From Octopus vulgaris (Eukaryota): a DNA stretch of 64,000 bases. The DNA lies in the NCBI GenBank assembly GCA_951406725.2, contig OX597839.1, forward strand, positions 28,396,001 through 28,460,000. The letters run 5' to 3'. Below the pieces are notes generated by a model. That model had not been told where the DNA came from. It was given only the letters and a program-made list of their open reading frames with translations, and did no database searches. Every line of letters starts with the position of its first letter. The first letter of the stretch is position 1. A program made the position numbers and the translations under genes. Positions 12,101-42,100 of the stretch are shown here, in pieces.

Positions 12101-15100
12101 CACCGTCCGTTCGTGGCCGTTTGCCAGCTCTGTCTGGCCCCGTGTCGGTGACACGTAAAAGCACCATCCGTTCGTGGCCGTTGTGCCAGCTCTGTCTGGC
12201 ACCTGTGCAGGTGGCACGTAAAAAACACCCACTACACTCGCGGAGTGGTTGGCGTTAGGAAGGGCATCCAGCCGTAGAAACACTGCCAGATCTGACTGGG
12301 CCTGATGAAGCCTTCCGGCTTCACAGACCCCAGTTAAACCGTCCAACCCATGCTAGCATGGAAAACGGACGCTAAATGATGATGATGATGATGATGATAT
12401 ATATATATATGCATGTATGTATGTATATGTTTGTGTCTGTGTTTGTCACCCCAACATCACTTGGCAACCGATGCTAGTGCGTTTACATCCCCGTAACTTA
12501 GCAGTTCGGCAATAGAGACTAATAGAATAAGTACTAGGCTTACAAAGAATAAATCCTGGGGTCGATTTGCTCGGCTAAAGGTGGTGCTCCAGCATGGCTG
12601 CAGTCAAATGACTGAAACAAGTAAAAGAGAGTAGAAGATGAAATCACAAAAAAAGACATGTTGATGTCATATTTTAGAGTAATCTCATGACACTCATTTA
12701 AAAGCTACCCAAAGAAGATGCAAAGGAAACTGTGTTTTATAGCTGATAAATAAGCAGAGCTGTTTTTGGTTTCCACTTTTTCCATTTTACGATGCATTTG
12801 TGGAAAAAGAAGATATTGTTGCAGAGTTCTAAGAGTTATTTTGATGCCCATTCACAACTTACCCATACTACCCCCATCATGGAATCAAAAATCATGCAAA
12901 AACTCTCCACCCTAATATATATATATATATATATATATATATATACATAAAATACAAAATGGGACAAGAATGCAAAACATCCAGATAGATGATACAAAGA
13001 AAACAAGGATGGGTCATTCGAAGTCCTCTATCCTCAGTCAAGCACCAGATTATCCTTGCAATTTCGGCTGATTATATATATATATTGTCTGTTGAAAATC
13101 CATATATTTTTTTTGCAACTGAAGATGGCACTGTATTTAAATTGATGTAATGCTTACATTGTTCAATTAAATGGAGCTGCCTGAAACGGTTGTATTGCAT
13201 TAATACCTTACATCCTGTATTTATTTGATTTTTATTCACCTTACTTCGAGCTGTGCAGATAATACCAGACTAGTTTGAAAATTCCCTTTTTATATATCAT
13301 GTAATTATCTGAAACATGCATGTTAAATGCATCCAAAATCTCATTACTTGGATTGACTTCATTGTTTTACATATATGTGTATTTATATCTATCTATTTGT
13401 GTATATTTTCTCTTACTATCAGGTTAAAACCAGTTGACGTTGATATGATGAAGAAGATCCATCAAAAGGTGAACATAGTCCCACTGCTAGCCAAATCCGA
13501 TATGCTGACCCCTTCAGAAGTGAAGAAAAAAAAGGCCAAGGTAGGTCAAGAGTTCGTCAAGAGGTCAGTGAAAGGTCATAGTGTGACGTTGGTGAAATAA
13601 TTAAAAGTGGGATCAATTGGTCCCTTGTGAGTGAAATTTAGGAGGGACCAAGAATGTAGAAGACTGTTGTATATGTGTGTGTGCATGATTGTGTGGTTAT
13701 GAAATTTGCTTCCCAACTGCATGTTTCCAGGTTCAGTCCTGCTGCATGGCACCTATACAAGTGGTGTCCTTTGTTTCCAACCTTCCCCGAAAACATGTTG
13801 GCTCATGGGGTAAGTATTACCATATTTGGAAACAATTGGAATTTCAGAAAATCTGCCTCAGCAATTTCTGCCTGACCCGTGTGAACATAGATAAGCAGAT
13901 GTTGAAATGGTGGTGGTGAGTAATGATGGTTCAGAAACGTTAGCTGGTAGAACTGTTAGCACGCCAGATGAAATGCTTTGTGGTATTTCGTCTGCCGTTA
14001 CGTTCTGAGTTCAAATTCCGCCGAGGTCGACTTTGCCTTTCATCCTTTCGGGGTCGATAAATTAAGTACCAGTTACGCACTGGGGTTGAAGTAATCGATT
14101 TAATCCGTTTGTCTGTCCTTGTTTGTCCTCTCTGTGTTTAGCCCCTTATAGGGTAGTAAAAGAAATAATAATAATGAAATTATTGTATACAGTGCTCAGG
14201 TGCACCACAAAAATATACTTGCTCAAGGTGCCAAGCAGTGGGACTGAACCATGAGATTGGTAAGCAGACACTTTACCACACAACCATGCCTACACAAATA
14301 GGTGAGTAATGATGGTGGTAATGATCATGATACTGATAGGTGGTGTGGGTGGTGGTGGTGGTGGTGGTAGCGGCTGTGATGGTGGTTTTGATGATGTGTT
14401 TGTGCATGTATATGTATTATATTTCTGTGTTGTTGTTGTTATTTACGCCCCAAGTCAGTCGGTTTTTGCTGATTTCTTCTGAGTCAGTTCTAGCCGCAAG
14501 TCACTTCTTGTGCGTTCACTGAGAATCTTCTGGTCTGATTCCAAGTAAGTTCCTGGTGTTTTGGCTCTAATTCAGTTCTAATCTAATTCCAACCAACAAT
14601 TTCCTGCTTGGCTCTGACCTGGTCTCATTCCAACCATAAATTATTCTGGTCTCTGTTTCGCTTGGCCTAATTCACATCTCACTGATTATTTCCACTTCTG
14701 CACATGTATGTGTGTGTGCACATGTGTGTAAAGATGAGAAGCATATACAATCTCTCACACTTGCTCTCTCTCTCTCTCTCTTTCTCCGTCTCTCTCTCTC
14801 TCTCTCTGTCTAGCTATCTATCTATCTATCTATATATATATATAGTGAGTTCGATTTACAGACCAGGCTGTGTGTTGTGTTCTTGAGCAAGATACTTTAT
14901 TTCACATTGCTCCAGTTCATTCAGCTGTAGAAATGAGTTGCGATGTCTCTGGTGCCAAGCTGTATCATGGCCTTTGCTTTTCCCTTGGATAACATCAGTA
15001 GTGTGGATTGTGGAGACTGGTATGCATCAACAACTGTAAATATATATATATATATAAGTATAATCATAAAAATACAATTATAATGAAGTGACGATGCCTG

Positions 15101-39100: not shown

Positions 39101-42100
39101 TAAGGCCAACCTCTTCCCCTGATGGAGAGGATTGGCCTGTGACAGCCCTGTGCCAGTGCCACAGAAAAAACACTCACATTAGCTTCATGTAAAAGTGCTT
39201 GTGCCAGTGTTGTGTTACAAGCAGTGACATATAGTGCCACCAAATTTCAAGCAGGAGTGTAACAAAAGGTTTCCTTTGAGATTTGCAATTAGATTAATAA
39301 GATTAACATCTATAATGAATTTGCGGTTTTCAGTGGTGGTGCAGCACACACCTAGCACATCCGGAATATAAACCCCTGGTTAAAAGCACCCAGCACACAC
39401 TGTAAAGTGATTGAAGTTAGGAAGGGCTTCCAGCCAGAGAAGCCAAGCCAAATTGAACTGGAACCTGGTGCAGCTATCCAGCTTGCCAGCTCTGGTCAAG
39501 TTGCCCAACCCATGCCAGCAAGGAAAAGAACATTAAAGGATGATGATGATGACGACAACAACACCGCTGATGATATTAAATACATTAGCTATATTAGAAA
39601 CTGCATCAGTGCTTATTCAGCAACAATAAGTAAAGGCCCCTTAGGTTATGAATGTAAAGAGTTTGCTAAAATCAAACCATATTCCACAGAATACATATTT
39701 CATGTTGATTTTATGACAACTAATTCATTAGCATAACATATTTATATAACAATTGTAAGAGGTACAAAAGAAGAACACCAATGGGGTTTTCAAATTTCCT
39801 ACAGCTGTTTCAGTAGCATTTTATTGATGCATTCATAGATGACATCATAGCAGAAATCCACCATCCTCAGGCACAATTTTAAACATGTATAAACTGGTAT
39901 ACCGAGATGACCTATTCACCAACACTTACAGTAGAATGCAATAAAGCTTGTTTACTCAATCTAACCCAATCTCTCCTGCTTACACTTATATATATATATA
40001 TTTCATTACTTCACTTAGGTGTAGCAATACTAATAACCTGGTGTTAGAACTCGATATACATGTGCTTCAGAACAAAGTGTCAGTCTAGTAAAGCAGTAAT
40101 AAGAGACTGAAATGGCAAAGGAAAAGAAATTGTCAGGCTCATGGCTTAGTGGTTAAGGTGTTCAGCTCACAATTGTGAGTTCAATTCCCGGCGATAGTGT
40201 TGTGTCCTTGAGCAAAACACTTTATTTCATGTTGCTCCAGTCCACTCAGCTAGCAAAAATGAGTAGTGCCTGTATTTCAAAGGGCCAGCCTTGTCACACT
40301 CTGTGTCAGGCTGAATCTCCCTGAGAACTACGTTAAGGGTATACATATCTGTGGAGTGCTCAGCCACTTGCATGTTAATTTCACGAGCAAGCTGTTCCAG
40401 TGATTGTATCATCTGGAACCCTCATCGTTGTAACCGATAGAGTGCTCTCATATATATATATATAATCAAAATAAGCAACAAGGATATCCAAAGGTAATGC
40501 AGTACGATCGTTTCATGCGACTTCATTTAATTGAACAATGCAAATATTACATCAGTTTTAAAATGTAGAGCAATCTTCAGCTGCATATGGAATTTTTTAG
40601 TTAAATTGAAAAGATTCATTTTTATACTTATTCCATATATATATAAACACACACTAATATACACACATATGCATACACACACACACATATATGTATCTGT
40701 ATGTATGTACTACCATTATTCATACGTACAGTGACACACTGTGCATTCATTTATTCTTGAATTCTGGAAAATTTTGTGTTTTCTAAGTCTTATAAATGTG
40801 GTGCGTTTCAGCTTTGTGTGGTGTTGCCATTTGGTACAGTGCAGATTTGTGGTGCAGTGAGTGTATTGCGATGGAATTGCATAAGGCATGAGAAAAAGTA
40901 TCTCAGACTTGATAATCAAAGGTTTGAAGGGGTTTTTTAGGATTTAGGGTAGTGCTGGGTGTTTAAGGGTTGAAGTGGGGTTGTTGTCTAGTTTATCTTT
41001 TCCAGGTTTAATTATTATTGTTAGGGAGGGAATCTAGCCACAGAAACCATGCCAAAGCTGATACTAGAGCTTGATGTAGCCCTGCAACTCAACACGGCCC
41101 CGTGACTTGACACAGCTCTGCTGCTTAATGGATCCTGTCAAACCATCCAACCCATGCCAGCATGGAAAACAGACCTTAAATAGCAATGATGGGGATGTTT
41201 ATACTTAGAGCAACAAATTGGCAGAGAGTCATTCGAACGTTGGACAAAATACCTGGTGGTATTTGTTCTGTTCACTGTCTTTCATTGATAAAAAAAAGTG
41301 ATACAATCCAGGGTGGTAAATTGGCAGATCTGTTAAACAGTCAGCCCAGATGTCTCATGGTATTTGCTCCGGATCTTTGCATTGTGAGTTCAATGCTTTT
41401 CATCCTTTTGACGGGGGTCTATGAAAATCTATGAGTCCAGGGGTGAGTGGATTAATGGAACTGTTAGTGGGTCTGGCAAGATGCCTTGTGGTTATTCCCT
41501 CAGTCCCTTTGTGTTCTGACAGCAACATCTGTTATTCCCTCAGTGCTGAGCTGTATCGTCACAAATCTGTGGAGTTTTTCTTAACTTGCAAATCCTGGTC
41601 TGGCAACACCAAGGACAGGAGAAGCCACAGCACCATGACCCTGCTATGCATGACCGAGAACAGAGGCCAGTGGTGATGTAAAGTTACCTTCTTGTGTCAT
41701 ACAAACTCATAAGGACCGGTTTCCCAGTTTAAATGGCATATAAATTCCCTGCCAGGACAAGATGCTGGTCTGTCACAGGATTACTGGATTTTACCAGCTG
41801 AGTGGACTGTAGCAACGTAAAATGAAGTGTTTTGCTCAAAAACACTATGCATTACTCAGTCAAGGAATTGAAACCACAACCTTACAATCATGAGACCGAT
41901 ACCCCTAACCACCAAGCCATGCATCTCCACTAGTGGTGATGGCTGATTGTAAAAGCATCCTGAGAGACACCCTAACAACTGGCTGCATCAGTGAAGGGAT
42001 CTTCATGGTGATGACAAATTGTCGGAGAATAGACTTCATTGCATTATAAGATGGGATGCTGAGGATATTCATCATTTCAAATCTGACACAGTAACTGACA

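What the first reader, a model, noticed from the sequence alone, without database searches (positions are those of the whole stretch)
13114..40585. Compensatory covariation across copies of hammerhead family H2
Seen: stem I is tgcaa/ttgca at 13114 and 38301 but tgcag/ctgca at 40498(-). The base of stem II is GGCA/TGCC, AGT/ACT and TGC/GCA respectively, always after an unpaired U.U. Stem III is ACGGTTGT, ATGGTCAT or ACGATCGT, while CTGAAGA and GAAA stay invariant. The unrelated element at 48550 also has U.U at the base of stem II. Inference: paired changes with an invariant core indicate selection on the RNA fold in the source elements. Part of the stem III change could be simple CpG decay.
Basis: partly seen in the sequence, partly recalled or inferred. 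Interest (0 to 1): 0.7.

Follow-up and report, generated by a model that had tools for sequence, protein, structure and literature searches.

The report
Long-armed hammerheads of Penelope-like retrotransposons
These repeats are clipped ends of a known group of jumping genes, each with a predicted self-cutting RNA that has an unusually long arm; paired changes between the source families are real and likely reflect selection, several pairs seen in these particular copies are likely just decay, and cutting is untested.

Summary
The letters are as described, plus a fourth, inverted copy at 38176-38261(-). H2 is a high-copy family (1,251 exact core matches, 0 for the reversed control) of type I hammerhead motifs near the 3' end of Hydra-clade Penelope-like retrotransposons (PLEs). 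One H2 type is contiguous with a GIY-YIG endonuclease end, and sister lineages have full RT-EN frames. Covariation is real between source lineages: 8-11 compensatory double changes against 1.4 expected, with the core invariant in 14 of 14 clusters. A per-pair test passes only one pair. The stem I G-C/A-U change and the second pair of stem II are true lineage states. AGT/ACT, the fourth pair of GGCA/TGCC, and ATGGTCAT are CpG or private decay. U.U is not required (sister lineages have G-C, G.U or A-U) and is published, as is covariation in PLE hammerheads. I found no paper on the 57-60 nt three-helix stem II, which holds a conserved AAUAAA/AUUAAA 23-26 nt before the predicted cut. This scan had already noted Hydra-PLE long-stem hammerheads elsewhere in this genome. 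Cleavage is untested.

The parts
13071..13266 (+). Copy A: 5'-truncated PLE 3' end (A/B type), sense inside an intron of a septin gene
   Evidence: 86% to longer member L005; exon 13424-13540 matches Pfam Septin E=7e-12
13114..13199 (+). Hammerhead A: stem I, CUGAAGA, U.U, 57-nt stem II, GAAA, self-complementary stem III; predicted cut after 13194
13166..13171 (+). ATTAAA hexamer inside stem II (copy A)
38024..38275 (-).
38277..38423 (+). Copy B: direct arm with the short tail; hammerhead 38301-38386, predicted cut after 38381; ATTAAA at 38353-38358
40461..40639 (-). Copy C (younger C type) between microsatellites; hammerhead 40498-40585, predicted cut after 40503; ATTAAA at 40531-40526
   Evidence: 95.5% to L151, where the same end follows a GIY-YIG C-terminus
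48550..48643 (+). Hammerhead D of an unrelated family: 67-nt stem II, U.U, GUU cut triplet, no poly(A) hexamer
48273..48488 (-). Inverted, more decayed arm of element D
   Evidence: 85% identity to the direct arm

Best explanation
These are 5'-truncated, decaying 3' ends of Hydra-clade Penelope-like retrotransposons in (TA)n tracts, each carrying a predicted type I hammerhead ribozyme whose pairs and core were likely kept by selection in the source elements. Shown: family size, the link of the C type to a GIY-YIG end, full RT-EN sister elements with this hammerhead in both pseudo-LTRs, and compensatory change between lineages. Inferred: the 8-nt self-complementary stem III pairs two hammerheads (5' and 3' pseudo-LTR, or two RNAs), and these cut after GUA, probably helped by the element's protein, to process a fraction of transcripts. 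Reverse transcription would start at one of two sites about 40 or 130 nt past the cut and copy uncut or re-ligated RNA, leaving truncated and inverted ends. Once inserted, the copies drift, mostly at CpG, which can mimic compensation because CpG pairs with CpG.
For: C-type hammerhead about 1.65 kb after an endonuclease C-terminus with CxxC-E...N...CxH in L151, with the same junction in L159, L161, L163 and L169. That piece is 68% identical over 65 aa to a full 981-aa frame with RWK, DKT, YRDD, CxCX5C and GIY-YIG motifs, the Hydra hallmarks of PMC8557442 section 11. Lineage tree of 14 cluster majorities: 8-11 compensatory double changes against 1.4, and 6.5 pair breaks against 34; 0 of 300 shuffles reached this in each of 20 reconstructions. 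The pairs fixed in advance also pass alone: stem I 3 vs 0.25 (p=0.002) and base of stem II 2 vs 0.19 (p=0.011). In 22 real copies 96.4% of cells pair and 13 of 25 pairs change on both sides, against at most 52% and 4 when slid. The 11 core columns are invariant in 14 of 14 clusters, against 23 of 81 other columns. The hammerhead is 91-93% identical where the adjacent upstream 150 nt is 65-66% (clusters 12/14 and 13/14; shuffled baseline 49%). The four lineage forms of stem III all stay self-complementary. 3' ends are bimodal: 94 of 177 at +30-49 and 45 of 177 at +120-149. In 13 inverted pairs not picked by the core pattern the arms differ at core 4/141, paired 23/571, unpaired 21/407 and CpG 17/65 (p=0.50).
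Against: No cleavage data. My R-scape-like per-pair test found 0 of 3,916 pairs significant (best E=0.53) and 1 of 24 named pairs (E=0.004); six middle-helix pairs were mis-indexed in that run. The middle and apical helices came from RNAalifold on the same rows, so their test is circular. The tree was built from the hammerhead itself, and many copies were picked by an exact-core pattern. No full-length element of H2 proper (clusters 7-14) was among the loci, and the A/B type is tied to coding sequence only by two weak or indirect hits. Copies B and C do not adopt the hammerhead as their single-sequence minimum-energy fold, and their stem II z-scores are only -0.5 and -1.4. None of 31 near-full-length sister copies starts within 20 nt of the cut. 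Core changes against the cluster majority are rarer than other changes even in copies picked by UTR or endonuclease (6/479 vs 82/1997 and 79/1447), which strict neutrality explains only through unresolved sublineages.
Confidence: 0.75

Rival explanations
1. The fold is selected mainly as a binding site for the element's RT-EN protein, for RNP assembly or placing the RT start, and cutting is weak or dispensable.
For: In PMC11167929 ribozyme mutants did not affect insertion in vitro and no reads ended at the cut. Here 20 of 31 near-full-length copies run through the upstream cut site and none starts at it. The long arm has conserved unpaired bases.
Against: All 11 catalytic-core columns are invariant across 14 clusters, N17 is never G, and stem III stays self-complementary; a pure binding site would not obviously need these.
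Confidence: 0.13
2. The long stem II is a switch that masks a poly(A) signal, so that ribozyme cutting and polyadenylation compete at almost the same site.
For: AATAAA or ATTAAA ends 23-26 nt before the cut in 14 of 14 clusters and 193 of 218 copies, with a U/GU-rich tract behind it. Retention in all clusters has P=0.0007 under shuffling. The flanking base varies mostly when it lies outside the hexamer register.
Against: The motif was picked after I had seen it. The same bases pair within the helix, so U-A to C-G and A-U to G.U changes explain the flank pattern, which rests on only a few events. Family D has the hexamer in 0 of 11 cores. 10,284 long-arm motifs carry it, against 27,980 long-arm motifs in all (different length ranges). 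Insertions include sequence 40-130 nt past the site.
Confidence: 0.1
3. The apparent covariation is only shared ancestry plus CpG decay, with no selection on the fold.
For: This holds for AGT/ACT, the fourth pair of copy A and ATGGTCAT: of 22 double CpG decays, 13 keep pairing and 9 do not (8 vs 9 in the A/B clusters). The per-pair test is nearly blank, and its top hits include non-structural pairs.
Against: The event-based tests and the slid controls. Several double changes are transversions (U-A/A-U, U-A/G-C). The core is invariant beside a UTR diverged to about 65%.
Confidence: 0.06
4. These copies are host-exapted regulatory ribozymes, for example in the septin intron.
For: Copy A lies sense in a septin intron and folds a stable stem II (z=-3.8).
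Against: Copies carry CpG and private changes, and inverted arms diverge equally at paired and unpaired sites. The window copies are ordinary members of a family with more than 1,000 copies.
Confidence: 0.02

Closest known systems
Hydra-clade PLEs and their hammerheads, including Hydra-1_Obim (Craig et al. 2021, PMC8557442; passages, section 11, supplement part 2 of 59 and two term searches seen)
   Same: C-terminal endonuclease, RWK, DKT, CxCX5C, CxxC/CxH, (TA)n target, inverted truncated copies, type I hammerhead near the 3' end. By my count 14 of 26 Hydra rows of File S2 have U facing U at the base of stem II.
   Different: The published Hydra rows have 3-7 bp stem II with 3-10 nt loops, in elements under about 3 kb. 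Here stem II spans 57-60 nt in three helices; intact sister elements repeat at about 4.65 kb, with roughly 950-aa Asn-rich frames and a 3' UTR up to about 1.6 kb; the two 3' ends are about 90 nt apart rather than 30-40.
Minimal PLE hammerheads (Cervera and de la Pena 2014, PMC4209133; parts 1-2 of 4 read, supplements not seen)
   Same: [quoted passage not shown]
   Different: They report helix II of 7-8 bp, a bulged base before a conserved G10.1-C11.1, and little or no helix III. Here the 10.1/11.1 position varies (U.U, G.U, G-C, A-U) and stem III is an 8-nt palindrome.
U10.1-U11.1 hammerheads (Perreault et al. 2011, PMC3088659; axolotl HHR_Amex2 in PMC7229834; passages seen)
   Same: A natural U.U mismatch at the base of stem II, reported as the best-tolerated mispair.
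   Different: No extended stem II is described in the passages I saw.
Anole Poseidon PLE, PAc (Frangieh et al. 2024, PMC11167929; passages and second half of the main text read)
   Same: Two internal RT start sites past the hammerhead, AT-rich targets, insertion from uncut RNA, protein-assisted ribozyme.
   Different: A different clade. Its ORF starts inside stem II; here the first Met of the sister element lies about 210 nt after the cut (L239).

Membership tests
Type I hammerhead ribozyme | Core CUGANGA, GAAA, UH in type I order | tested here: met
Type I hammerhead ribozyme | Stems I and II supported by compensatory change | tested here: met
   Event-based and slid controls pass; the per-pair test is weak
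Type I hammerhead ribozyme | Stem III pairable (as a dimer if short) | tested here: met
   8-nt self-complementary stem III in all lineage forms; self-duplex -10.0 kcal/mol in copy C but -1.8 to -3.0 in decayed A and B
Type I hammerhead ribozyme | Purine-pyrimidine pair at 10.1-11.1 (canonical consensus) | tested here: not met
   U.U in 188 of 218 copies, G-C in 13; U.U is a published tolerated variant, so this marks a variant, not exclusion
Type I hammerhead ribozyme | Self-cleavage | not testable with these tools
   Only assembled contigs of guessed-RNA runs were available
Type I hammerhead ribozyme | Match to an Rfam hammerhead model | tested here: inconclusive
   No hammerhead family among the 150 listed of 279 matches at E<=1; the long stem II probably defeats the models (inference)
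Hydra-clade PLE | C-terminal GIY-YIG endonuclease with CxxC and CxH flanking E and N, upstream of the hammerhead | tested here: met
   L151 and four more loci for the C type; A/B type inferred from homology of the hammerhead and tail
Hydra-clade PLE | Single ORF with RWK, DKT, RT YRDD and CxCX5C linker | tested here: met
   In sister lineages with the homologous hammerhead (L235-L240, L243, L245); no full-length element of H2 proper found
Hydra-clade PLE | Pseudo-LTRs, inverted 5'-truncated copies, optional tail, (TA)n target | tested here: met
Hydra-clade PLE | Placement in the Hydra clade on an RT phylogeny | not tested
   Reference proteins were seen only as cut text in the supplement; the motifs agree by eye
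Non-LTR retrozyme | Short (about 300 nt) non-coding tandem units | tested here: not met
   The unit is several kb and coding
Naiad PLE | N-terminal endonuclease, no canonical hammerhead | tested here: not met
   The endonuclease is C-terminal

The most novel reading that the evidence does not exclude
In this Hydra-PLE clade the extended stem II is an RNA switch. It part-buries a conserved AAUAAA/AUUAAA placed so that the poly(A) site coincides with the ribozyme cut. Folding of the ribozyme (as a dimer or on the element's protein) would yield a cut or circular RT template and suppress polyadenylation in the 5' pseudo-LTR; unfolding would yield a polyadenylated mRNA. This would give PLE hammerheads a testable role.
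Probability: 0.1. Interest if true: 0.72.

Novelty: new variant of a known kind. Interest (0 to 1): 0.38.

Why it matters
The function of hammerheads in endonuclease-bearing PLEs is an open question; PMC8557442 even asks whether they merely parasitise the elements. This genome holds a graded series of source lineages, in which core and pairs persist while the neighbouring UTR drifts to near-random identity. That argues for a function in the element's cycle. Young sister copies with open frames offer material for a direct test of the long arm, the 10.1/11.1 series and the hexamer. The case also shows how CpG decay in dead copies fakes compensation. The basic facts (hammerheads in Hydra PLEs, covariation, U.U) are already published.

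Tried and rejected
Rfam scan: only hairpin or microsatellite miRNA-like matches among the 150 listed of 279. Five widely spaced inverted pairs held unrelated insertions, not the ORF. Naiad 'half-core' reading: rejected, the endonuclease is C-terminal. Retrozyme reading: rejected. Pfam found no family for the endonuclease piece or the full ORF, apart from one spurious match at E=0.57; PDB none. Per-pair G-test with a tree-shuffled null (my own code, not R-scape): nearly blank, and making the null CpG-aware changed nothing. All 33 inverted pairs gave a lower core rate (8/348, p=0.009), but many were picked by the exact-core pattern, so 20 rows were dropped and 13 kept. Expression: no listed holder is on record as RNA. 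Contigs of 7 guessed-RNA runs cover the family and some span the cut; no pile-up of ends, and no poly(A) end among the 24 loose-end rows shown (67 not shown). This is uninformative either way. Cleavage-defined 5' ends: 0 of 31, with a query that favours longer copies. Lunse et al. (PMC5785218) is not held and is known to me only through the review PMC6765202 (passages); it and the unseen supplements of PMC4209133 may already show long-stem-II variants. Searches for prior description: 'extended stem II' with hammerhead and retrotransposon gave 0 papers, and I saw only listings for the poly(A) searches, none pointing to this. The hexamer coordinates for copies A and B in notebook entry 3 are wrong; one search corrects them.
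Full report
Observation. Every quoted letter is present. The three motifs are type I hammerhead layouts with 57-59 nt between CUGAAGA and GAAA. A fourth copy, 38176-38261(-), is the 93% identical inverted arm of 38301. The window lies in a 2.8-Gb, 227-contig AT-rich animal genome; earlier notes call it octopus-like, which I did not test. A pattern fixing the core and four pairs of stem I matches 1,251 times, the reversed control 0 times. None of the 150 Rfam matches listed (of 279) is a hammerhead.

What carries it. Copies sit in (TA)n, are 5'-truncated and often inverted. 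Walking upstream from C-type copies led through about 1.65 kb of non-coding UTR to the end of a GIY-YIG endonuclease in L151, with the same junction in L159, L161, L163 and L169. That piece has 13,035 first-look candidates in the genome. Related elements carry homologous long-arm hammerheads. The youngest have the hammerhead in both pseudo-LTRs about 4.65 kb apart, around stop-free frames of 941-984 aa with RWK, DKT, YRDD and CxCX5C, and in all but L244 also CxxC-E and CxH. These are the Hydra-clade marks in PMC8557442 section 11. The H2-linked piece is 68% identical to them over 65 aa. No full-length element of H2 proper was found, and the A/B type is linked to coding sequence only weakly, so its assignment rests on homology of the hammerhead and tail.

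Covariation, pair by pair. 218 full copies (of 232 hits) fell into 14 clusters; sampling mixed BLAST, pattern, UTR and endonuclease picks and is not random. The inner pair of stem I is A-U in 23 of 26 copies of cluster 7 and mostly G-C elsewhere, so it is a real lineage change. Pair 2 of stem II is U-A in the C type. Among the 36 genome-wide copies with the A-U stem I it is G-C in 13, G.U in 12, A-U in 8 and A.C in 3 (my count), so it is real too. The fourth pair of GGCA/TGCC is not: close relatives keep CpG on one or both sides. AGT/ACT occurs in 1 of 26 copies, and its sister arm reads AGC/ACT. ATGGTCAT is a double CpG decay. Among 177 H2 copies both CpGs decay together more often than independence predicts (22 cases, p=0.0007), but 9 of the 22 break pairing, which fits age differences rather than compensation. 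Stem III does change between lineages, always to another self-complementary word with an A-U, G.U or G-C centre; one of those steps is itself CpG-like.

Covariation, in aggregate. A per-pair G-test with a tree-shuffled null passes 0 of 3,916 pairs and 1 of 24 named pairs, six of which were mis-indexed; few independent events give it little power. Counting events on the tree of 14 cluster majorities gives 8-11 compensatory double changes against 1.4, and 6.5 breaks against 34 (0 of 300 shuffles, 20 reconstructions). Stem I (p=0.002) and the base of stem II (p=0.011), both fixed in advance by hammerhead topology, pass alone. The middle and apical helices were predicted from the same rows, so their support is circular. 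On 22 real copies 96.4% of cells pair and 13 of 25 pairs change on both sides; slid partners give at most 52% and 4. The core is invariant in 14 of 14 clusters, against 23 of 81 other columns. The hammerhead stays 91-93% identical where the next 150 nt upstream are 65-66% identical; exchange of ends between lineages could contribute to this. After insertion the copies look neutral: 13 unbiased inverted pairs differ at core 4/141, paired 23/571, unpaired 21/407 and CpG 17/65. Private changes are core 15/1164, paired 90/4660 and unpaired 71/3362 (p=0.11).

U.U. It is present in 188 of 218 copies, but sister lineages have G-C, G.U or A-U, and the young intact lineage has G.U. Family D has it in 10 of 11 cores. 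It is published for Hydra hammerheads (14 of 26 rows) and elsewhere. It is a tolerated variant, not a signature.

How it likely works. The short palindromic stem III implies dimer activity, as PMC4209133 argued. 3' ends fall at two distances past the predicted cut (94 of 177 at +30-49, 45 at +120-149), matching the two internal RT starts shown for the anole element. Of 31 near-full-length sister copies, 20 run through the upstream cut site and none starts within 20 nt of it. The copied RNA was therefore uncut or re-ligated, as in that study. Cleavage itself, dimer formation and any circle are inferred, not shown; the RNA data were contigs only and uninformative.

What may be new. I found no paper on a PLE hammerhead with this three-helix, 57-60 nt stem II, but Lunse et al. 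and the Cervera 2014 supplements were not seen. Long arms are common here: 27,980 matches against 1,676 for the control, in many unrelated families, and earlier notes of this scan say the same. In this clade the arm holds AATAAA or ATTAAA 23-26 nt before the cut, in 14 of 14 clusters and 193 of 218 copies (P=0.0007 by shuffling, post hoc). 10,284 motifs carry it, against 73 for the control. The flanking base tends to vary only outside the hexamer register, but the same bases pair within the helix and most other long-arm families lack the word. That these hexamers are the usual animal poly(A) signals, and that a hairpin can mask one in retroviral LTRs, is recalled knowledge. I give the switch reading 10%.

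Verdict. A real feature and a new structural variant of a known kind. Interest 0.38.

Noticed in passing
L235-L245; listing: A young sister lineage with near-identical pseudo-LTRs. 12 of the 150 listed hits have stop-free frames of 940-1,091 aa with long Asn-rich inserts, which suggests recent activity; no Pfam or PDB match.
   Followed up: partly
L278-L281, upstream pseudo-LTR: 4 of 31 near-full-length copies begin 253-260 nt before the cut site, a possible transcription start or a shared parent.
   Followed up: no
genome-wide: About 28,000 hammerhead-like motifs with 50-66 nt stem II in many sequence-unrelated families; why long arms recur in this genome is unexplained.
   Followed up: partly
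window 47007-47122: A palindromic insertion with a short-arm hammerhead motif at 47080, from another family.
   Followed up: no
window 2588(+) and 16999(-): Two copies of a further short-arm hammerhead-like family.
   Followed up: no
window 48273-48690; L251-L275: Family D has 591 first-look candidates; two loci have Hydra-type endonuclease pieces nearby, but linkage was not established.
   Followed up: partly
window 38024-38423: The two arms of the inverted insertion end differently, one with the short and one with the long tail.
   Followed up: partly
window 13424-13540: Septin exon; copy A lies sense about 160 nt upstream in the intron.
   Followed up: partly
window 40200-40410: A very abundant unrelated repeat that dominates the laid contigs.
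   Followed up: no
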